NCBI GenBank assembly: GCA_016839805.1
Contig: JAEOTO010000007.1
Location: 21,171 to 85,170, forward strand
DNA length: 64,000 bases
Direction: 5' to 3'
Source: Candidatus Hermodarchaeota archaeon
GTDB taxonomy: Archaea > Asgardarchaeota > Hermodarchaeia > Hermodarchaeales > Hermodarchaeaceae
Position 1 is the stretch's first letter, and each line of letters opens with the position of its first letter. Both the position numbers and the translations under genes were made by a program. This document shows positions 19,096 through 29,133 of this stretch, one piece after another. The notes under the pieces are model-generated. The model made no database searches, was not told the DNA's origin, and was given only the letters and a program-made list of their open reading frames with translations.

Positions 19096-19124
19096 TATCT
19101 GGAAAATGCTATTAAGACACTTTT
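19096..19124 (+). repeat. 29-bp dispersed direct repeat, copy 1 (dif-like site candidate)
   Basis: TATCTGGAAAATGCTATTAAGACACTTTT. Confidence 0.75.
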
Positions 19125-19244
19125 AAGTCGGTGGACCCAACCTCAAAAATAGAAGATAAATTGAGTATTGGCGGTGTTTTCCTATAAAGGTGAATTAAGT
19201 TTTGTTTAATAGTTCGCATTAGTAATTGATACTAGGGTGGTTCT

Positions 19245-20300
19245 ATGGAGTCGCTGCTAAGAAATTGGAATGGGGAAAGCGTGATTATCCGCTTTGATCG
19301 ACCTTCAGGCGCTTGGATAATCATCGCCATTCATTCGACTTTTCTAGGACCCGCAATAGGTGGCACGCGTATGAAGTCTTATCCGAATTTTAAAGCTGCC
19401 CTAGAGGATGCTCTTCAATTAGCAGCCAGCATGACTTACAAATTTGCAGCAGCTGATTTCCCTTCTGGCGGTGGTAAAGCTGTAATCGCGCTCCCTTCCT
19501 CCTTCGACATACATGAGAGACCGAGCTTATTGCGGCATTATGGGACATTGCTGAAGCAATTAGGTGGGTTGTTTCAAGCTGGACCTGATGTAGGAACCTC
19601 TCCTGCCGATATGGATATTATAGCAGAGACCGGGGCACCATTTGTTTTTTGTCGAACCCCCGAAAAAGGGGGAGCTGGAGGTTCGGGAAAATGGACCGCC
19701 CTAGGCGTCTTTCATGGCATGCAAGCTGTATGCAAACAGCTTTTTGACAATGAATCACTTAGGGAGCGAGTCGTCATGGTTCAGGGAACGGGTAGTGTTG
19801 GTCACCCATTGATTGAGTTACTATTGAAGGATGGAGCTGAGGTATTGTTTAGTGAAGTAAACCAAACGGCTATTCAACATTTCCGCGATAAACTCAAATT
19901 GCCATTTGTCCCACCTAAACGCGTTTATGATACTCCCTGTGACATATTTGCGCCCTGTGCTTTAGGTGGAATTCTTAACAAGGATACGATTCCCCGTCTG
20001 AAATGCACCGCAATTGCTGGAGCCGCCAACAACCAACTCGCTGAACCAACCGATGCTGTGAGACTAATGAAGAGAAATATCTTGTATGCACCTGATTTTA
20101 TAATTAGTATAGGTGGAGCCATGGCAATCATTGGAATTGAGAGAATGGGCTGGTCAACAGATGAAGCCCGAGCGAAAGTAAACTCAATTAAGCAAACAAT
20201 GCTGCGAGTTTTTAAACTGGCTAAAGATGACCATATTACTACTGATGCCGCGGCTAAACGTATAGTTGACTCTCGACTGTCTAGAACTGAAAGTAAATGA
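19245..20300 (+). CDS. Leu/Phe/Val (ELFV-family) amino acid dehydrogenase
   Basis: IAIHST..GPAIGGTRM, MTYK, GGGKAVI, GPDVGT, QGTGSVG, PCALG and GAANNQL motifs. Confidence 0.93.
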   Translation: MESLLRNWNGESVIIRFDRPSGAWIIIAIHSTFLGPAIGGTRMKSYPNFKAALEDALQLAASMTYKFAAADFPSGGGKAVIALPSSFDIHERPSLLRHYGTLLKQLGGLFQAGPDVGTSPADMDIIAETGAPFVFCRTPEKGGAGGSGKWTALGVFHGMQAVCKQLFDNESLRERVVMVQGTGSVGHPLIELLLKDGAEVLFSEVNQTAIQHFRDKLKLPFVPPKRVYDTPCDIFAPCALGGILNKDTIPRLKCTAIAGAANNQLAEPTDAVRLMKRNILYAPDFIISIGGAMAIIGIERMGWSTDEARAKVNSIKQTMLRVFKLAKDDHITTDAAAKRIVDSRLSRTESK

Positions 20301-20343
20301 CGAAAAAGATGTGGGCGGAAAGACTAGATAGGAATAATCAAAA

Positions 20344-20372
20344 TTTCTGGATGAGCCTATTATGACACTTTT
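20344..20372 (+). repeat. 29-bp dispersed direct repeat, copy 2
   Basis: TTTCTGGATGAGCCTATTATGACACTTTT. Confidence 0.8.
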
Positions 20373-20508
20373 CTATGGATATTTTACTTGAATCCGTCTT
20401 GTGGCGTAGGGGCTCATTTTTGCCTGATACGGAAAGCGCTATCTTTGCGTGTGTGCTGCCCCTGGCTAGTGAAATATTGTCTTGTAGCCAGCCAATGCTT
20501 GAATTGCT

Positions 20509-21180
20509 TTAGAATCCAACGGTTTCTCCGAGTAAGATAATTGTTGAATCTGTATGGACAGGTCGGCGTTCAATTATCGTCGTTACATTGCAGATCCTAT
20601 TCGGTGACTCACAATCTGAACAGATACCAGTTTTTGCACATGGCACTTGAAAATTTAAGCGTTTAGCGTTCATTGGAGCCGCGACATATCTGATTCTGTC
20701 CATGGCTTGTTCCACATTCCTGACTATCTTATTTACTCCTGCAATGATGATAACCTTCTGCGGGCCAAAGATCATAGCAGCGACACGTTGACCAGCGTGA
20801 TCAATGTTAACGAGATGGCCTTCCTCTGTGATCGCGTTAGTGCTTGTCAAAAAGATATCCGCGTGTGCCAGCATTTTTCTTGCTTTCATCACGTCTTCCG
20901 GTTTTTGTCTTTTCTTTTGTGCCTCCCAGTGACTAATAATTGTATTTCCTCGTTGTTCAAGGGAATCTACAAGACCAATTTCCCTTATAGTGACAGATCC
21001 TCCAACGCCTACTAAGGCATTAGGAGGAATAAGCTGTAAGACCCTAGCCATAACTTCATTTCTTGTAGGAAAATACATCACGTCAAAGCCATTCTTTTTC
21101 AGTGCAGTCAAGGTTCTTTGAACCTTCTTTTTCCAATACCAGTTCCTAACCTCCTGCCACACTTTTACATCATGCCACAT
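20509..21180 (-). CDS. LUD-domain (LutC/YkgG-like lactate utilization) protein
   Basis: GGSVT, ADIFLTSTNAITEEGHLVNID, GVNKIV and PCAKTGICSDC..RIC motifs. Confidence 0.88.
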   Translation of the reverse strand: MWHDVKVWQEVRNWYWKKKVQRTLTALKKNGFDVMYFPTRNEVMARVLQLIPPNALVGVGGSVTIREIGLVDSLEQRGNTIISHWEAQKKRQKPEDVMKARKMLAHADIFLTSTNAITEEGHLVNIDHAGQRVAAMIFGPQKVIIIAGVNKIVRNVEQAMDRIRYVAAPMNAKRLNFQVPCAKTGICSDCESPNRICNVTTIIERRPVHTDSTIILLGETVGF

Positions 21181-21316
21181 TTTACCACCACATTAAATGC
21201 TAAGTTAACAACCCAAAAATACCTTTCATAGTAGTACTAGCAAAATCAATAGATATTCAGCATCAATCATTGTAAGGAAAAAATCAAAAAAGGTACGAAT
21301 ACATCGATAGTTGAAA

Positions 21317-21366
21317 AATCTGTAAAGGGGCATTATGACACTTTTGCAAATTATTGTAACACTTTT
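21317..21366 (+). repeat. 29-bp dispersed direct repeat, copy 3, plus an adjacent extra right half-site
   Basis: AATCTGTAAAGGGGCATTATGACACTTTT (21317-21345), then ATTGTAACACTTTT (21353-21366). Confidence 0.8.
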
Positions 21367-21519
21367 TGGCAGAATACAATGGTTATTGCATAATCTGAAT
21401 TTGGTTCCTTAGGATTTAAGATGCAGGCGCTCCTCAGGATAAATGAACACTATTCTAGAATTATTACTATTTGATACTGTGAAATCCTGTCATGGCTTTC
21501 CGAGAAAGGGGCTAGGTCC

Positions 21520-22176
21520 TTGCGGCTTATCAGTTCTTTTTTTAATTTTTTTGAAGCAGGACCTTTTTTATTCGATGGTTCAAGCATAGCTGTTGAGGGA
21601 ATATCATTCATTCTTACATTAGTTAGTGGGGTTTTGGTCTTTGGCGTCCTTCGATGGCGAACACACCGTAAGCTTGCACCCTATCTGGTTACGCTGGGCG
21701 TTATGCTCCTTTTCGCGGTGTTGGAAACGTGGATCGTCACGATTTGGCAGCCCGACCTCGGGCGACGTGATCTAGAAGACGCCGTAGCTAAGTTTTTCGC
21801 CTTCCCTTACACCGTAACTATACGTGAAGGCGAGTTTCTATGGATATATTCCTATATCGGTGTACTCATTGAGTGTGGAAACCTTCGATTGTTTCTCTTT
21901 TTATCCCCTACAGTTATTCATGGGTCAGCTGAAATGGTGTTCTGGTTCGCCCAGATCCGGCTGCTGGCCTTCCGCATCGTCATCAGTTTTCACCTCATCG
22001 CCCTCCTCCTCTTCATGCTCATCTTAACCAGCGTCGATATCATCTACAGGCGATTCCACATCCGAGCTGTCACCAAACACTCAAAGGCAGCCCATGAGGG
22101 GTTCTCGTGCAGCTCTGAGGAAGAACGAGCGGATGGTAGTGTTACTCAAACCGCTTCAAGGAACTTAGCTTCTTAG
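21520..22176 (+). CDS. Hypothetical membrane protein
   Basis: Several hydrophobic segments; start uncertain; no recognised family. Confidence 0.5.
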   Translation: MRLISSFFNFFEAGPFLFDGSSIAVEGISFILTLVSGVLVFGVLRWRTHRKLAPYLVTLGVMLLFAVLETWIVTIWQPDLGRRDLEDAVAKFFAFPYTVTIREGEFLWIYSYIGVLIECGNLRLFLFLSPTVIHGSAEMVFWFAQIRLLAFRIVISFHLIALLLFMLILTSVDIIYRRFHIRAVTKHSKAAHEGFSCSSEEERADGSVTQTASRNLAS

Positions 22177-22266
22177 TTGAGGAGCACCGGTTAGAGTGGT
22201 AGTACTGAAGTTTTGGTGGGTACAATACACGTAGCGTGCGGTATTTCCTTTTTTAATCGGTTGCAG

Positions 22267-22295
22267 AATCTGGATAATCCCATTGTGACACTTTC
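22267..22295 (+). repeat. 29-bp dispersed direct repeat, copy 4
   Basis: AATCTGGATAATCCCATTGTGACACTTTT. Confidence 0.8.
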
Positions 22296-22549
22296 TCTTT
22301 TGATTATTCACATGAGGCAATATTGCAAAGTGGGACCATTAGGATGAATATAGAAAATTGGTTTCTCATTTTCATCCGACAAAGAAGGTTAGCTTTAACG
22401 CGTCAAATCTATCTATTAAGAGTATTGTTTCTTTTCCTTTGAATCAGAAATAAACTGTCAAGTAGTTCGACACATTTAAGACTGAACTTTGGAATCGTTC
22501 AAATGATTACTCGTAGTTGAGTAATTGTTTAAATATCGAGGTTTCAAAC

Positions 22550-23710
22550 ATGCGTATTACTCGAAATTTTCTCTTATTCTTAGCAATGTGTACTTTGCTT
22601 CTACCGTTTTTCTCAATTGGTTTTTCAGGGATTCAAATGGCGCCTTCAATGACTGTAATGGCCCTGCCTGCTCCAACACTTACACCACGAATTCTTTACT
22701 TTACTCAGTTTGCTGATAATACTCCTGCTGGCGAAGTACAGAATGTCTGGGGGGCGATTAATGATACTCATGGAACCAATTATGTTCGAACCAACCTAAC
22801 TTCCTACACGGATCTTGCTAGCGAGCTCCCGAACTGTGATATTCTTCTCATTCCCGAACAAGAGCAGATTTATTCAGAAAATATCACCGCTATTGCGCCA
22901 ACTTGGCTAACGCCACTTAACACCTTCCTGAGTCAAGGTGGAATTATAATCGGCATGACCTACTCCAGTGATAACTTCGGACCTATTGCCACTGCGCATA
23001 TACTCAATGACACGGGATTAATGGATATTCAGGGATCATCACCTATGACAGGGTCACCGGTCACTATTCTTGACGCTACAGATCCCCTTGTTGATGGGGT
23101 AAGTGCATTTACCGCTCCAGATGGCAGTGTAGATTTCATTACTACAGAAACCGGAATTGTGGCGAATACCACTTTGGGACCAATCCTTCTTCACAAACAG
23201 AGTAGTCTTGGGCACATCGTTCTGATGGGAATGGATTTCTTTGCACGAGATTCTGAAGCTGACAAAATTCTTGGCAACGCCATCCGATTATACCAACCAC
23301 CTTCAGCACCGGTTCTAAATGATCCAGGGGTTACGATTTCAGGATTTCAGGTCCCACTTACTTGGACTGCGGCAACAGACACCGATGGTATTATTGACCA
23401 TTATGAAGTGCAGGCTAGCGCTGATGCCGGCTTTTCCATTATTGGTCAAAGTGATACCACAACGATGTTGAATTACAGTTTTACCTTTTTGTCAAATGGA
23501 ACCTATTATTTCCGCGTTCTAGCTGTTGACAATAATACATTAGAAGGTCCATGGAGTACTGTGGTAAGTACCTATATTGAACTCCCACCCTTAACTTTTC
23601 CAACTGGTATTCCGGGGTTCCCGATTGAAGCGATAGCTCTGGGGCTAGTACTTTCATTGGGAATAATTTTCGTCGTACGCCATCATAAACAGCAAAAGGT
23701 ATCTTCATAG
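22550..23710 (+). CDS. Surface protein with GATase/DUF4350-like domain, fibronectin type III domain and PGF/Loki-CTERM-type tail
   Basis: Signal peptide MRITRNFLLFL; DILLIPEQE..FLSQGG; FN3 pattern LTW..YEVQ..YYFRVLAVD..GPWS; IPGFPI-TM-basic tail. Confidence 0.8.
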   Translation: MRITRNFLLFLAMCTLLLPFFSIGFSGIQMAPSMTVMALPAPTLTPRILYFTQFADNTPAGEVQNVWGAINDTHGTNYVRTNLTSYTDLASELPNCDILLIPEQEQIYSENITAIAPTWLTPLNTFLSQGGIIIGMTYSSDNFGPIATAHILNDTGLMDIQGSSPMTGSPVTILDATDPLVDGVSAFTAPDGSVDFITTETGIVANTTLGPILLHKQSSLGHIVLMGMDFFARDSEADKILGNAIRLYQPPSAPVLNDPGVTISGFQVPLTWTAATDTDGIIDHYEVQASADAGFSIIGQSDTTTMLNYSFTFLSNGTYYFRVLAVDNNTLEGPWSTVVSTYIELPPLTFPTGIPGFPIEAIALGLVLSLGIIFVVRHHKQQKVSS

Positions 23711-23914: not shown

Positions 23915-24325
23915 CTATGCTCCTGCTTCAGATCTCTTCGACACTAGACCACCAATGAGTCCGATGAGGCCAGGTAAGAATCCAATGATAAAGGGGAAAA
24001 TTCCCAGTATCAAGCTTATGATACCAGTAATAATTATGCCCATTTTGTGTTCACCAGGATGTCGGAACCAACGGAACCATAGTATCATTGTTATAAGAGA
24101 CCATACTCCCTGAGCTGCGGAGATTACCATAATTGGAACACCAGTGATAAACCAGTAAGCCATTATGTCTGGATGATAATCTGGTGAGCTGGGAACAAAC
24201 CAACCCGTCCAATAGTAATTCAGATGCAACAAATAGAACAGTGCAAAAATAGTGAATGAAGCAAGCATTCCTAGGAGGTGAAGTACTGCTCCTGCGAGGA
24301 CATAATTTGAACCTTTTTCAGACAT
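23915..24325 (-). CDS. Small multi-TM membrane protein
   Basis: Hydrophobic helices; W..HPGEHK..GFLPGL motif shared with the frameshifted gene at 32680. Confidence 0.75.
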   Translation of the reverse strand: MSEKGSNYVLAGAVLHLLGMLASFTIFALFYLLHLNYYWTGWFVPSSPDYHPDIMAYWFITGVPIMVISAAQGVWSLITMILWFRWFRHPGEHKMGIIITGIISLILGIFPFIIGFLPGLIGLIGGLVSKRSEAGA

Positions 24326-24717
24326 TACTCTGTTCCCTCCATTCCAGTTGGTAACGTAGCTTCTTTGGCTAGATGTATAAAGCTGTTTGCTATTAAGAAA
24401 AAACTGTATTTCAAAGTTTAATATCCACTTTACGAACCGCTCTTTTTCCTTTACACAATGCCAAATACATGTGTTTTTTCTCGTATGATATATAAGGTAG
24501 AACAGGCAATTCTATCTCAGTGCTGGGAAGATTGGTTTCAATGAAGTGGCTAAGTGACAACTTAAACGATGAGCGTAGTTTTACTTCTTCTAAGCACTAG
24601 TGAAGGCTTTCCGAAGGTTGTATTTAGACATGCTGTTACGGCCCTCTCTTGCATTTCATCAAGAAATGCGTACTACTACTCTTCGGAAGCGTTCCTCATA
24701 ATAAAGGAGAGATTTCA

Positions 24718-27700
24718 ATGAAACAATTTCAAAACAGAAGTAATCGACTACGATTACTCCTTTTCGTTCTCTTGTTATCCATTTCAGCTCTAAGTGTTCC
24801 TTACTATTATTCCAATGCACTCCCGATGAGCGCAAATAACGGCATTCACTCAGAACAGAATTTGGTCTCAACTGCAAGTGCTTTCTCCAAAATCCCATCT
24901 ACACGATCGACTGATAGACAAGTATCTTCCGTAATTAATTTCGTTTCACAGCAGGAGATGCCTTCTAGGGTGTTATTGGGAAAATCTAGTTCCTCTCCCT
25001 TGACATATGGCACACCACATGGCCCGATCATCATTACCAGTGATTCTAATTTCGCAACCCAGGCTGGTAATGAAATGTGGCCAGGGAATGGAAGTAGCAG
25101 TAACCCCTATATTATCGCGAGTTTTGATGTCGATGTTGCTGGAGGTAATTACGGGATTCATATCAGTGATACCACTGTGTATTTCATAATCCAGCATTGT
25201 TTCCTTCAAGACGCTATCATTGCTTGTATCTTTCTTGAACGCGTCCAAAATGGACAACTATTCAATAATACGTGCTATGATTATGACACTGGTATCCTTC
25301 TCGAAGATTCAGATGATAATCGAATAACTAATAACAACTGTACCATGAGCAAATTTGGCGGATACGGAATCGATCTTGATGATTCACACTATAACGTGAT
25401 CGCAAATAACACCTGTTCAGACAACGATAGTCGCGGTATCTATCTTTATTGGTCAGATTTTTGTCAGCTAATTAATAACACCTGCTATGCCAATGATAGG
25501 GGTATCATTACAAATGTGGCTGATCACACCACGCTCACTGACAACACCTGTTATAGTAATACCTTACGTGGTATTGTCATCTGGGGCGGGGATCAGCTCA
25601 CTGTCGCAAATAATACGGTTTACAATACAGGGGCATGGGGGTTTGAAATTGACGCTGTATATGATAGTACCTTCTCAGACAATCTCTGTTACCAAAATAG
25701 TCATGGAATGTACATTGAAGGTAATTCACAAGAAAATCAAATTAGTGATAATACTTGTTATCTTAATGATTACGGCATCTTTCTTAGTGGCTCACGCACC
25801 AACAGTATCGTCAACAATAACTGTAGCGACAATAATCTTGCTGGAATATCTTTGTCTAATTCAGATTTGAATACTTTGAGCGACAATATCTGTGAAACTA
25901 ATCTTGAAAATGGCATTAGTCTTACTAACTCGGATTCTAACACCTTAGACTACAATAACTGCTCAAGTAACACATTGAATGGCATTCACCTCATTAATTC
26001 TATTTCCAATAGACTGACTGATAACATCTGTCAGGACAGTGATATCGGAATCAATGTGGAATATTCACCGAGAAACGAGCTCATTGATAACTTATGCCAG
26101 GTCAATGACTATGGTATTTTACTCAACAATTCAAAATTCAATCAACTCAGTCACAATACCTGTGAATCTAATAACATCGTAGGCATCCGCCTCTACCAAG
26201 TCAATTCCTCAACTGTTATTTACAACGACGTGAAAACGAATAATATTGGCATTCTCCTCGAAGAATCAGATTCCAACAAGATCTACTATAACACCTTTGA
26301 AGATAACACTGGCTATGGTGTTCGAGTTATAGGATTTTCACATTTCAATCAAATCAAGTGGAACCTCTTACAGACCAACGTAAACAATGCTTTGGACAAC
26401 TGCACCAATAATTTGTTTGATTACAACTATTGGTCTAACTATACAGGTCCAGATGCCAATTCAGACGGCATTGGAGATATTCCCCATCCGATTCCAGGTT
26501 GGGGGAATAATACTGACCCTCATCCAGCATTGATTTCACCACTGCCACCAACATGGCTACAACCGCTCGTTAACCAAACCGTTGAATTAGGAACATCCTT
26601 TACCTATGATGTCGATGCTGACGCTATTGCTCCCATGGATACATATTGGATCAACAACACACTCTACTTTACGATTGATGATAGCGGTGTGATTAGCAAC
26701 AAAGGCCTCATACCAATAGGAACCTATTGGCTACTCATTATTGCCACGAACGTGTATCAAGCCCAACTAACAGGAATTTTCAATGTGACAGTGGTGGACA
26801 CCACACCTCCCATCTGGTACGAACAGCCACAAGACATGATAATTCATCATGACCAAGATGTTGCCTACCAGGTACCCTTACCCTTTGACCTTTCTGGAAT
26901 ACTGTATATCTGGCTTGAAGGATCGGGATCCTCAAGGTTTGATATCAATGCAACTGGATATCTTACCAATAATATGTCACTATTCCCTGAGGTTTACAAC
27001 ATCACAGTAGTTGCTGAAGACCCATATCACAACTATAATTCCGTAACCTTCTTCATCGATGCAAAAGAATACATTTTCACTCCTCCTGAAGTACCATGGG
27101 CAGAAATTAATTTCTGGGTGATACTACTCTGTTCAATCATTGGAGGAGTAGTCATACTATATCTCAGCGTCCTCATCATAATGAACTTCAGAAAAACTCG
27201 TGTCCCCAAGTCATCAACAAACTTACTTCGACTCCAGACCCCCATACTTCTCATTGTTCTAATACTACTATTGATTTTTGCACCCCTAATGCACGCAGTT
27301 ATTCAAGGAGGCACTCAACCCACCGGAAGAAGCGGAATCACCACCAATCAAACAACACCATTTACTAGTCTAACCGTAGACAGTAAACAAGATCCAATGG
27401 TTCCTAGTTCGCCATTTTCCAATCCCTACATGATTTGGAATCAAACCTTCTCATTTTCAGATTGGGATGATGGTCGATCACTTGTAGCATGTAGTGATGG
27501 AGGATACCTTATCGTGGGACGTACCAGTACAGCAACAAATACTGATTTCTTAACGATACGAACTGATGCTAATGGGAATCACCTATGGAATCGAACCTTT
27601 GGAGGTCCTGATCATGACTATCCTGAACAAGGGATTGAATGCAGTGATGGTGGCTTCGCCATCATTGGATATACAGATAGCTTCGGTCTTTCCACCGGCG

Positions 27701-29133
27701 CTGTAATTCTCTTACGGTATGATGCCAGCGGGAACCTCCTATGGAACCAAACATATGACGGAAGTAACTCTGATTACGGTTATTCTTTAACTGAGTATTC
27801 AGGTGGAGGCTACTTGCTAACAGGTTACACATACAGTTATGGTACAAATGGTGACATGTGGCTGATTCGTGTAGATTCCAGTGGTACCCATTTATGGAAT
27901 CAGACCTACGGCGGAGCAGCCTATGATACTGGGCAATCGATTGTCGAGTGCAGTACTGGAGGTTTTGCCATTGCAGGTAGAACTGGTAGTTTTGGTGTAG
28001 GAACCGATATCTGGCTTGTACGTACACTAGCAGATGGTACAGCGATTTGGAATGCTACTTACGGTGGCTCCAGTTATGAATATGGAAACCAACTGCTTGA
28101 AACCACCGATGGTGGCTTTGCAATATTAGGAAACACCAATTCTTTTGGCGCTGGTGGATCGGATGGTTGGGTGGTCCGTACCAATGATACAGGAATTACT
28201 TTATGGAATCAGACTTTCGGTGGTGCTGATTACGATGAGTTTTATTCAATTTCTCCATGCCCATCTGGCGGATTTATCGTAGTTGGAGAAACATATGGCT
28301 TTGGACCCGGTTTAATGGATGCGACGTTATACCGGATTAATTCAGCTGGTCACCATCTCTGGAATCAAACCTTTGGCGGCATTGAATCCGATGTTGGCTT
28401 CTCTGTAGTGAATGCTAGTTCTGGTGGTTATGTGTTTGTAGGCTATCTGCGACCAAGTCCATCAGAAACCGTTGTTTGGCTGGTTCATATGTCACCCATT
28501 GCCTGGTGGCCTATACCAGTCGATATGGTCATCGAGACAGATTCTATATATCACTTTGATGTTACAGTTCAAACTCTTTCTACAATCGATTCTTGGTTGC
28601 TCAATGATTTAACTCACTTTTCAATGCAATCGATCGAATATTCTAAAGGCGGTATTGCCCGAATAACTACTATTGGTTCACCAAGCCCGAACACCTATAA
28701 TCTCGCATTGCGAGTAAACGATACCAACGGCGATTACATACGGGTAAACTTCGCCCTGACCATAACGGCTGTCAGCCCTCCAACATGGGTTGCAGCCCCA
28801 ACTGACCATAGCATCATCTTTGGTGAGCGATTCCAAGATCAACTCAATGCAACTGATGAAAGTGGTATTGATCATTGGTGGCTTAATGATACAGAACACT
28901 TCTCGATCAATATGTTTGGTGTCATAAGGGATAATGCCATTCTTCCGATTGGTATCTACGCTGTTCAGGTTTCAGTCAACGATACCCTTGGCAATACCTT
29001 ATCAGGCGATTTCATTCTTACGGTGATAGCTGGTATACCTCCAATACCATGGCTTCCTACAGTTCTCGCAGTTACACTACTTGTCGTCATTATTGTTGTA
29101 TTATTCGTAATTTATCAGAAAGTACGCAAATAA
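24718..29133 (+). CDS. Large surface protein: NosD/right-handed beta-helix, Ig/cadherin-like domains, two internal TMs, beta-propeller-like repeats, C-terminal TM
   Basis: GxGSSSNPYII lead-in, many GIxL..S..N.I..N.C repeats, NYWSNY..D..DGIGD, and WNQTY/FGG..DGG repeats. Start placed at ATG 24718; the ORF track starts at 24649. Confidence 0.85.
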   Translation: MKQFQNRSNRLRLLLFVLLLSISALSVPYYYSNALPMSANNGIHSEQNLVSTASAFSKIPSTRSTDRQVSSVINFVSQQEMPSRVLLGKSSSSPLTYGTPHGPIIITSDSNFATQAGNEMWPGNGSSSNPYIIASFDVDVAGGNYGIHISDTTVYFIIQHCFLQDAIIACIFLERVQNGQLFNNTCYDYDTGILLEDSDDNRITNNNCTMSKFGGYGIDLDDSHYNVIANNTCSDNDSRGIYLYWSDFCQLINNTCYANDRGIITNVADHTTLTDNTCYSNTLRGIVIWGGDQLTVANNTVYNTGAWGFEIDAVYDSTFSDNLCYQNSHGMYIEGNSQENQISDNTCYLNDYGIFLSGSRTNSIVNNNCSDNNLAGISLSNSDLNTLSDNICETNLENGISLTNSDSNTLDYNNCSSNTLNGIHLINSISNRLTDNICQDSDIGINVEYSPRNELIDNLCQVNDYGILLNNSKFNQLSHNTCESNNIVGIRLYQVNSSTVIYNDVKTNNIGILLEESDSNKIYYNTFEDNTGYGVRVIGFSHFNQIKWNLLQTNVNNALDNCTNNLFDYNYWSNYTGPDANSDGIGDIPHPIPGWGNNTDPHPALISPLPPTWLQPLVNQTVELGTSFTYDVDADAIAPMDTYWINNTLYFTIDDSGVISNKGLIPIGTYWLLIIATNVYQAQLTGIFNVTVVDTTPPIWYEQPQDMIIHHDQDVAYQVPLPFDLSGILYIWLEGSGSSRFDINATGYLTNNMSLFPEVYNITVVAEDPYHNYNSVTFFIDAKEYIFTPPEVPWAEINFWVILLCSIIGGVVILYLSVLIIMNFRKTRVPKSSTNLLRLQTPILLIVLILLLIFAPLMHAVIQGGTQPTGRSGITTNQTTPFTSLTVDSKQDPMVPSSPFSNPYMIWNQTFSFSDWDDGRSLVACSDGGYLIVGRTSTATNTDFLTIRTDANGNHLWNRTFGGPDHDYPEQGIECSDGGFAIIGYTDSFGLSTGAVILLRYDASGNLLWNQTYDGSNSDYGYSLTEYSGGGYLLTGYTYSYGTNGDMWLIRVDSSGTHLWNQTYGGAAYDTGQSIVECSTGGFAIAGRTGSFGVGTDIWLVRTLADGTAIWNATYGGSSYEYGNQLLETTDGGFAILGNTNSFGAGGSDGWVVRTNDTGITLWNQTFGGADYDEFYSISPCPSGGFIVVGETYGFGPGLMDATLYRINSAGHHLWNQTFGGIESDVGFSVVNASSGGYVFVGYLRPSPSETVVWLVHMSPIAWWPIPVDMVIETDSIYHFDVTVQTLSTIDSWLLNDLTHFSMQSIEYSKGGIARITTIGSPSPNTYNLALRVNDTNGDYIRVNFALTITAVSPPTWVAAPTDHSIIFGERFQDQLNATDESGIDHWWLNDTEHFSINMFGVIRDNAILPIGIYAVQVSVNDTLGNTLSGDFILTVIAGIPPIPWLPTVLAVTLLVVIIVVLFVIYQKVRK

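What the first reader, a model, noticed from the sequence alone, without database searches (positions are those of the whole stretch)
19096..22295. Array of single-gene cassettes delimited by 29-bp dif-like direct repeats: candidate archaeal site-specific gene-capture system
Seen: four same-orientation, ungapped 29-bp copies lie in consecutive intergenic gaps: TATCTGGAAAATGCTATTAAGACACTTTT (19096), TTTCTGGATGAGCCTATTATGACACTTTT (20344), AATCTGTAAAGGGGCATTATGACACTTTT (21317) and AATCTGGATAATCCCATTGTGACACTTTT (22267). They are spaced 1248, 973 and 950 bp apart. Each interval holds exactly one unrelated gene (amino acid dehydrogenase on +, LUD protein on -, membrane protein on +). The motif keeps its orientation regardless of gene direction, and copy 2 sits between two convergent 3' ends, which argues against a promoter or operator. 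Its layout is a moderately conserved left arm, a variable centre and a highly conserved TTATG-starting right arm. Known: tyrosine-recombinase sites such as E. coli dif (GGTGCGCATAA-TGTATA-TTATGTTAAAT) have this layout, and bacterial pdif modules bracket single genes with such sites. Inference: this is a Xer-type cassette or integration array in an Asgard-like archaeon, with the recombinase acting in trans because none is encoded in the window. Caveat: the ATAA-to-TTAT distance is 5 bp here versus 6 bp in canonical dif.
Basis: partly seen in the sequence, partly recalled or inferred. Interest (0 to 1): 0.85.

Follow-up and report, generated by a model that had tools for sequence, protein, structure and literature searches.

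The report
Gene-carrying transposon ends in Asgard archaeon
The four repeats are the stacked right ends of small transposase-less mobile elements that carry single genes between species of one Asgard archaeal genus; they descend from an element with an RNA-guided nuclease (TnpB), and the enzyme that moves them is still unidentified.

Summary
The four repeats are real, but they are not dif-like cassette borders. Each is a junction: a 6-bp core (TCTGGA) followed by one end (A: 7 nt plus a 13-bp box) of a mobile element. A second, different end (B: two more boxes, 28 nt, TCTGGA) closes the unit; one 75-bp A+B mini-element lies inside the finding. The motif occurs in 13 of 14 other genomes of this Hermodarchaeota genus. 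Cross-genome homology breaks at TCTGGA. In-silico excision restores contiguous host DNA at five loci, including a NUDIX reading frame. Cargo is 89-95% identical between genomes whose core DNA is about 70% identical. In 3 of 3 loci of one catalytically intact TnpB clade, end A is the 3' terminus of a conserved ~330-nt omega-RNA-like tail. So these are non-autonomous, cargo-carrying derivatives of a TnpB-linked transposon. No transposase was found in any unit. A tyrosine integrase acting in trans is my best guess; serine (IS607-like) or HUH enzymes remain open, and host XerA is unlikely. This scan had earlier noted the TnpB copy and a decapitated gene in this genome separately, without linking them to this array.

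The parts
19098..19103 (+). 6-bp core TCTGGA, junction 1 (crossover/target hexamer)
   Evidence: conservation collapses left of the core in 46 junctions
19104..19141 (+). End A of the dehydrogenase unit: 7 nt, 13-bp box (19111-19123) and about 18 nt of omega-RNA-like tail remnant
   Evidence: same 7 nt as the TnpB copy on C18; tail aligns with TnpB-linked tails
19245..20300 (+). Cargo: Glu/Leu/Phe/Val dehydrogenase (351 aa)
   Evidence: 92% DNA identity to G014:C9 against 69-74% for core DNA; homology ends exactly after the core at 20351
20346..20351 (+). 6-bp core, junction 2; in G014 the same hexamer is followed by unrelated host DNA (unoccupied target)
20352..20421 (+). End A of the LUD unit (7 nt, box 20359-20371, about 50-nt tail)
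   Evidence: same end in G009 and G011
20509..21180 (-). Cargo: LUD-domain protein (223 aa)
   Evidence: the whole unit 20352-21324 recurs at 89% as a solo insertion in G011:C16 and in another array in G009:C51
21291..21324 (+). Degenerate end B of the LUD unit (28-nt segment plus core, here TCTGTA), junction 3
   Evidence: the G011 copy ends in the intact core followed by host DNA
21325..21399 (+). 75-bp mini-element: 7 nt, box (21332-21344), 8 nt, box (21353-21365), 28 nt, core (TCTGAA); A and B ends fused, probably by deletion between boxes
   Evidence: same mini-element in L269 and G005:C316
21520..22176 (+). Membrane-protein ORF (218 aa, no Pfam hit) in an 875-bp segment between two cores; absent from G013; 79% paralog on C43 without element ends
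22269..22340 (+). Junction 4: core (22269-22274) plus an end A (box 22282-22294) with a LUD-type tail; no partner end B found downstream on the contig; tail end approximate
22517..23710 (+). Downstream FN3 protein; present in relatives at 67-77% identity, so probably host flank rather than cargo

Best explanation
The array is a stack of non-autonomous mobile elements of a family confined, among the genomes searched, to one Hermodarchaeota genus. Each unit reads: core, end A, cargo, end B, core. The ancestral form carried tnpB, with end A forming the 3' end of its omega-RNA-like tail (right end) and end B the left end. Derivatives lost tnpB and carry unrelated genes (0.07-8 kb). SHOWN: two distinct ends, breakpoints at the 6-bp core, one extra core per insertion, no other target specificity, dispersal over many loci, and cargo far more similar between species than core DNA. 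INFERRED: a recombinase supplied in trans binds the directly repeated 13-bp boxes, joins B to A across the core (probably as a circle) and inserts at any TCTGGA. Element ends recreate the target, so units stack in tandem. Use of a downstream chance TCTGGA instead of B, or deletions, captures neighbouring DNA. GUESSED: the enzyme is a tyrosine integrase other than XerA, needing 6 bp of overlap identity. The architecture alone I rate about 0.9; the figure given includes the enzyme class.
For: Motif in 13/14 genus genomes, 0/4 in the sister genus. 53 A junctions and 25 B ends; information falls to background outside the core on the host side. Breakpoints at the core in independent pairs. In-silico excision aligns across the junction at 5 loci, one restoring an ungapped NUDIX frame. 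Cargo 89-95% against core 69-74% identity. Tail after tnpB ends at box + 7 nt + core in C18, L308 and L310; it folds better than shuffles (z -2.8) with 11 two-sided changes in 3 sequences; six TnpB-less units keep 100-240 nt of it. RuvC D/E/D intact. For a tyrosine enzyme: identical 6-bp core on both sides; decayed halves of one integrase family abut end A in G009:C51 and L269; a sister TnpB clade sits at tRNA-Thr without TnpA; no resolvase in 15 genomes; no Y1 in G000.
Against: No intact recombinase gene lies inside any unit. Six intact or frameshifted members of the candidate integrase family (C24, L272, L273, L275, L277, L278) have no A or B end nearby, and the C24 one has its own palindromic repeats. 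The L269 case may simply be an insertion into an integrase gene, and it was found by selecting for integrases. End B lies upstream of tnpB in only 1 of 3 loci. Published TnpB-tyrosine-recombinase pairs have inactive TnpB (PMC10691335). The same core on both sides leaves open how TnpB avoids cutting its own right junction. No circle or read evidence was available. The G013 deletion of the membrane segment maps to the boxes, not the core. All genomes are incomplete MAGs.
Confidence: 0.5

Rival explanations
1. Same elements, moved by an IS607-type serine transposase in trans: directly repeated end motifs, circular intermediate, crossover in a dinucleotide inside the core.
For: IS607 ends have short direct repeats, no terminal inverted repeats and a core shared by ends and target, and they carry tnpB (PMC6188088; 10.1101/2023.11.20.567912). 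The best sub-family score for this TnpB is IS607_TnpB, 57.7 bits against 35 for IS200, both far below cut-off.
Against: No PF00239 in 15 genus genomes and no PF07508 in 5. The core is 6 bp and reads TCCAGA, not (T)GGG, on the tnpB strand.
Confidence: 0.18
2. Same elements, moved as single strands by an HUH enzyme (IS200/IS605 peel-and-paste or IS91-like rolling circle), with end A essential and end B a leaky stop.
For: TnpB linkage. A ends outnumber B ends 53 to 25, which fits one-ended capture. In the TnpB-proximal subfamily the box pairs into a 7+4-bp subterminal stem. One Y1 gene exists in G013.
Against: End B has no significant hairpin (z -0.5 to -0.9) and the stem is not kept in all A tails. 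No Y1 in G000 or four other genomes. No Y2 in five genomes, though that control was silent. Direct-repeat boxes suggest double-strand binding.
Confidence: 0.17
3. One reading: pdif-like cassettes recombined by the host XerA.
For: The box resembles the XerD arm of dif and end B finishes in an XerC-arm-like GCATAA (resemblance from memory). A XerA above the family cut-off is conserved in the genus, which would explain trans activity everywhere.
Against: No 11-6-11 inverted arms around the crossover. Targets share only 6 bp. Insertions are dispersed and hit genes. The one dif-like look-alike is inside a gene and not conserved. The sister genus lacks the motif.
Confidence: 0.1
4. Transcription-factor site, promoter or terminator.
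For: Copies are mostly intergenic. A TATA-like run lies inside the long form of end B.
Against: No fixed relation to gene starts. Homology breakpoints sit at the motif. Insertions interrupt genes. The bacterial-type promoter scan is at chance level.
Confidence: 0.02

Closest known systems
IS607-family transposons (IS607, IS1535, CboIStron; PMC6188088, 10.1101/2023.11.20.567912)
   Same: tnpB with an RNA tail ending at the right end; dissimilar ends with short direct repeats; core shared by ends and target; scarless empty site
   Different: 6-bp core rather than GG; no serine TnpA found; most copies are non-autonomous and carry cargo in tandem stacks
IS200/IS605 and IS1341-type solo-TnpB elements (ISDra2)
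   Same: intact TnpB, right end overlapping the RNA scaffold, flank as putative guide, no TnpA in the unit
   Different: left end has no hairpin; identical hexamer at both junctions; tail about 330 nt; cargo capture
Tyrosine-recombinase transposons: Tn554, SEs, GInts, Tn916 (PMC10214605)
   Same: cargo-bearing integrative units with a 6-bp sequence at the joints
   Different: those encode their recombinases, have imperfect inverted terminal motifs and a variable 6-bp footprint; here the 6 bp is fixed, the boxes are direct repeats and TnpB is linked
TnpB-tyrosine recombinase loci and Asgard aCas1-TnpB elements (PMC10691335)
   Same: TnpB next to attachment-like sites, sometimes without the recombinase; Asgard TnpB elements with unusual mobilisers
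   Different: those TnpBs are inactive (tyrosine case); no Cas1 above cut-off here; the end motif differs from the published aCas1 motif
pdif modules and archaeal XerA/dif (PMC2958812); archaeal integrons (PMC9668308)
   Same: single genes between short repeats, enzyme in trans
   Different: no 11-6-11 inverted arms, no attC hairpin, two different ends, dispersed low-specificity targets

Membership tests
Xer/dif (pdif) module | 11-bp inverted arms around a 6-bp crossover region | tested here: not met
   crossover maps to the conserved hexamer; flanking arms are not inverted repeats; host side unconserved
Xer/dif (pdif) module | a conserved chromosomal dif with related arms | tested here: inconclusive
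   none found, but the genome is 87% complete
Xer/dif (pdif) module | XerA binds and recombines the site | not testable with these tools
   needs a binding and recombination assay
Integron / CALIN | attC with R''/R' inverted repeat and folded bottom strand; IntI gene | tested here: not met
   no hairpin at the ends; both integrases are below the integron-integrase cut-off
TnpB (OMEGA) element | RuvC triad intact and a conserved structured tail ending at the element boundary | tested here: met
   holds for C18, L308 and L310, not for the window units, which keep only tail remnants
IS607 | serine TnpA | tested here: not met
   0 of 15 incomplete genomes
IS607 | directly repeated motifs in both ends, no terminal inverted repeats | tested here: met
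IS607 | GG core on the tnpB strand | tested here: not met
   core reads TCCAGA on that strand
IS200/IS605 | Y1 TnpA available and subterminal hairpins at both ends | tested here: not met
   no Y1 in G000; left end without hairpin; right-end stem only in one subfamily
Tyrosine-recombinase transposon | cognate tyrosine recombinase gene within or tied to the element | tested here: inconclusive
   only fragments beside end A in two loci
Tyrosine-recombinase transposon | circular intermediate joined across the core | not testable with these tools
   needs reads or PCR; chromosomal B-core-A tandems exist in at least 7 cases

The most novel reading that the evidence does not exclude
An undescribed class of Asgard transposon in which a tyrosine integrase moves elements through a fixed 6-bp core while a catalytically intact TnpB, guided by the flank beyond that core, guards or homes the insertion; its ends have been reused as a genus-wide, integron-like vehicle for single-gene exchange between species.
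Probability: 0.33. Interest if true: 0.85.

Novelty: new variant of a known kind. Interest (0 to 1): 0.66.

Why it matters
It shows a concrete, mapped route of recent gene exchange between species of Asgard archaea, the lineage closest to eukaryotes, whose mobile elements are poorly known. The ends, core and boxes are defined to the base, so the missing enzyme can be found by a direct assay. A mobiliser that needs only a 75-bp cis unit and a 6-bp target, paired with an active TnpB, would add a new enzyme pairing to the TnpB-transposon family. If the enzyme proves to be an ordinary IS607 or IS605 TnpA, the finding shrinks to an unusual cargo-carrying offshoot of a known family.

Tried and rejected
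Xer/dif reading: tested by arm symmetry, target logos and a dif search; the C23 look-alike is intragenic and unconserved. attC reading: no hairpin. Promoter/operator reading: rejected by breakpoints. Enzyme hunts that found nothing linked to the ends: PF00239, PF07508 (127), PF01797 (51, 85), PF04986 (52, control silent), IS110 PF02371 (53: two hits in other genomes, flanks not examined), Cas1 (89, below cut-off), and all PF00589 loci of the genus at +/-1.5 kb (15, 27, 50). Contigs of related integrases had no ends except L269. The 400-940-nt conserved region inside end B matched no family in six frames read through stops. No Rfam match for the tail. Viral contigs lack both ends and close TnpB relatives (107). 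One search used a mis-spaced pattern and was repeated. Motif hits inside the aRF1 gene of G001 and G012 and one in G021 were treated as chance. The Makarova 2020 aCas1 paper was not held. The C18 empty sites in distant relatives were too diverged to place the junction.

Full report
Observation. The four copies, their spacing and the single gene in each gap are as reported; only the last base of copy 4 is wrong. The motif has no chance matches in shuffles. A matrix finds two more strong copies in the genome, at C33:13039 and C18:6628. The closest relatives of the genome's XerA come from Hermodarchaeota and similarly labelled Asgard MAGs.

Distribution. A one-mismatch pattern hits 13 of 14 other genomes of the genus, 1-5 times each. 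It hits none of 4 genomes of the sister genus and 1 of 22 more distant genomes, a hit I treat as chance. All are incomplete MAGs. Copies lie at many unrelated loci, in clusters on one strand.

Anatomy. The 29-mer is a junction of a 6-bp core, TCTGGA, and an element end: 7 moderately conserved bases and a 13-bp box (consensus ATTATGACACTTT), followed by a subfamily-specific tail (end A). A second conserved end (B) has two boxes 21 bp apart, a 28-nt segment and the core, then arbitrary host DNA. Among 53 distinct A junctions and 25 B ends, conservation drops to background left of the core at A and right of the core at B, apart from a mild A/T bias. Some of these are orthologous copies, so they are not all independent. 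Wherever both occur on a contig, A lies upstream of B on the same strand. Units range from a 75-bp A+B mini-element (window 21325-21399) to about 8 kb, with unrelated cargo.

Mobility. The dehydrogenase region matches G014 at 92% up to the core at 20351 and no further. The LUD unit recurs in G011 as a solo insertion from core to core, and in G009 with different neighbours. The 7 variable bases stay with the right-hand element, so the crossover is in or at the core, not in the 'variable centre'. Further pairs break at the same point. Removing whole A-to-B units with one core copy gives sequence that aligns across the joint to other genomes at five loci. In one, a NUDIX reading frame is restored without gaps; in another the empty allele in G000 keeps the single hexamer. 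Cargo identity of 89-95% between genomes whose core loci are 69-74% identical indicates recent transfer between species; I did not build trees. One exception: G013 lacks the membrane segment by a deletion between two boxes.

Origin. The C18 unit carries only a TnpB with an intact RuvC triad. Two metagenome homologues at 65-66% identity have the same ~330-nt tail, 86% conserved, which ends at box, 7 nt, core and then unrelated DNA. The tail folds better than shuffles and shows some two-sided changes, from only three sequences. Six TnpB-less units keep 100-240 nt of it, and window copy 1 keeps about 18 nt. By analogy with known TnpB elements (PMC10691335; 10.1101/2023.08.09.552727) this is the omega-RNA scaffold and right end, and the flank would be the guide; that is inference. 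End B as the left end rests on C18 and on the general A-to-B pairing, because B was not seen upstream of the other two tnpB genes.

Mechanism. Shown: two ends, a fixed 6-bp core added once per insertion, and otherwise unselective targets. Inferred: a trans-acting enzyme binds the boxes, joins the ends across the core and inserts at any of about 1,350 such hexamers. End B recreates a target, which explains tandems (at least 7 of 53 A ends follow a B). The excess of A ends suggests that chance cores or deletions can replace B and so capture flanking genes; the window's dehydrogenase and membrane segments fit this but do not prove it.

The enzyme is not identified. No serine recombinase was found in 15 genomes, no Y1 in G000 and no Cas1 above cut-off. 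Fragments of one tyrosine-integrase family sit directly beside end A in two loci, and related TnpBs sit at tRNA-Thr without TnpA. Against this, intact members of that family lack the ends. My odds are tyrosine integrase 0.5, serine 0.18, HUH 0.17, host XerA 0.1. How TnpB would avoid its own right junction, where the core also precedes the guide-matching flank, is unexplained.

Comparison and verdict. It works most like IS607 in end design, like Tn554/SE elements in carrying cargo with 6 bp at the joints (PMC10214605), and like solo-TnpB elements in origin. It fails a defining test of each family I could test, including pdif and integrons. Ten literature-library searches were allowed and nine used; none described this element, but the library is incomplete. 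Verdict: a real, undescribed gene-carrying offshoot of the TnpB-transposon kind in Asgard archaea. New variant of a known kind; interest 0.66, up to 0.85 if the mobiliser is a tyrosine integrase partnered with an active TnpB.

Noticed in passing
G000 C24:288-4724 (L006): A second tyrosine integrase with a zinc-ribbon tail sits beside a 3.1-kb module bounded by its own palindromic 30-bp repeats; a separate system with an unrelated site.
   Followed up: partly
G000 C22:25808-27100; G006 C36; G008 C35 (L317, L281, L313): A sister TnpB clade (33-40% identity) lies next to tRNA-Thr genes with no TnpA and a different conserved tail.
   Followed up: partly
whole genome G000: 14 TnpB-domain matches but no Y1 or serine transposase detected; G006 has 32 matches and none either. 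What moves them is open.
   Followed up: partly
L071:3050-3830; L063; C18:8630-8900: A 400-940-nt region inside end B is conserved across species, has a TATA-like run pointing inward, and shows no intact ORF or family match.
   Followed up: partly
G000 C33:16720 (L003:12721): An HD-domain gene is decapitated exactly at the core of an end B; its 5' part was not seen at the other end of the unit.
   Followed up: partly
G009 C114:209-4665 (L064): A 4.4-kb unit interrupts a NUDIX gene; in-silico removal restores the frame.
   Followed up: yes
L308:2505-2560: The TnpB right end abuts an end B, so its putative guide would match the left end of a neighbouring family member.
   Followed up: no
G013 C231:1155-2250 (L205): At the locus where G000 has the TnpB unit, G013 has a different 1.08-kb insert bounded by TCTGGA and TCTAGA but with neither end.
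   Followed up: partly
window 23915-24325: A ~130-aa membrane-protein family recurs near element ends in several genomes (L204, L217, L269, C21).
   Followed up: no
G000 C21:139380-141740: A degenerate end B with an inverted box lies about 2 kb from another integrase C-terminal fragment.
   Followed up: partly
window 24649-29133: A 1494-aa surface protein with internal coding repeats (repeat families D2-D6).
   Followed up: no
G000 C28:24037-24984 (L005:8038-8985): Outside its own genus, the best genome hits of this XerA were bacterial XerC/D-like proteins at about 40% identity (word-seeded search).
   Followed up: no
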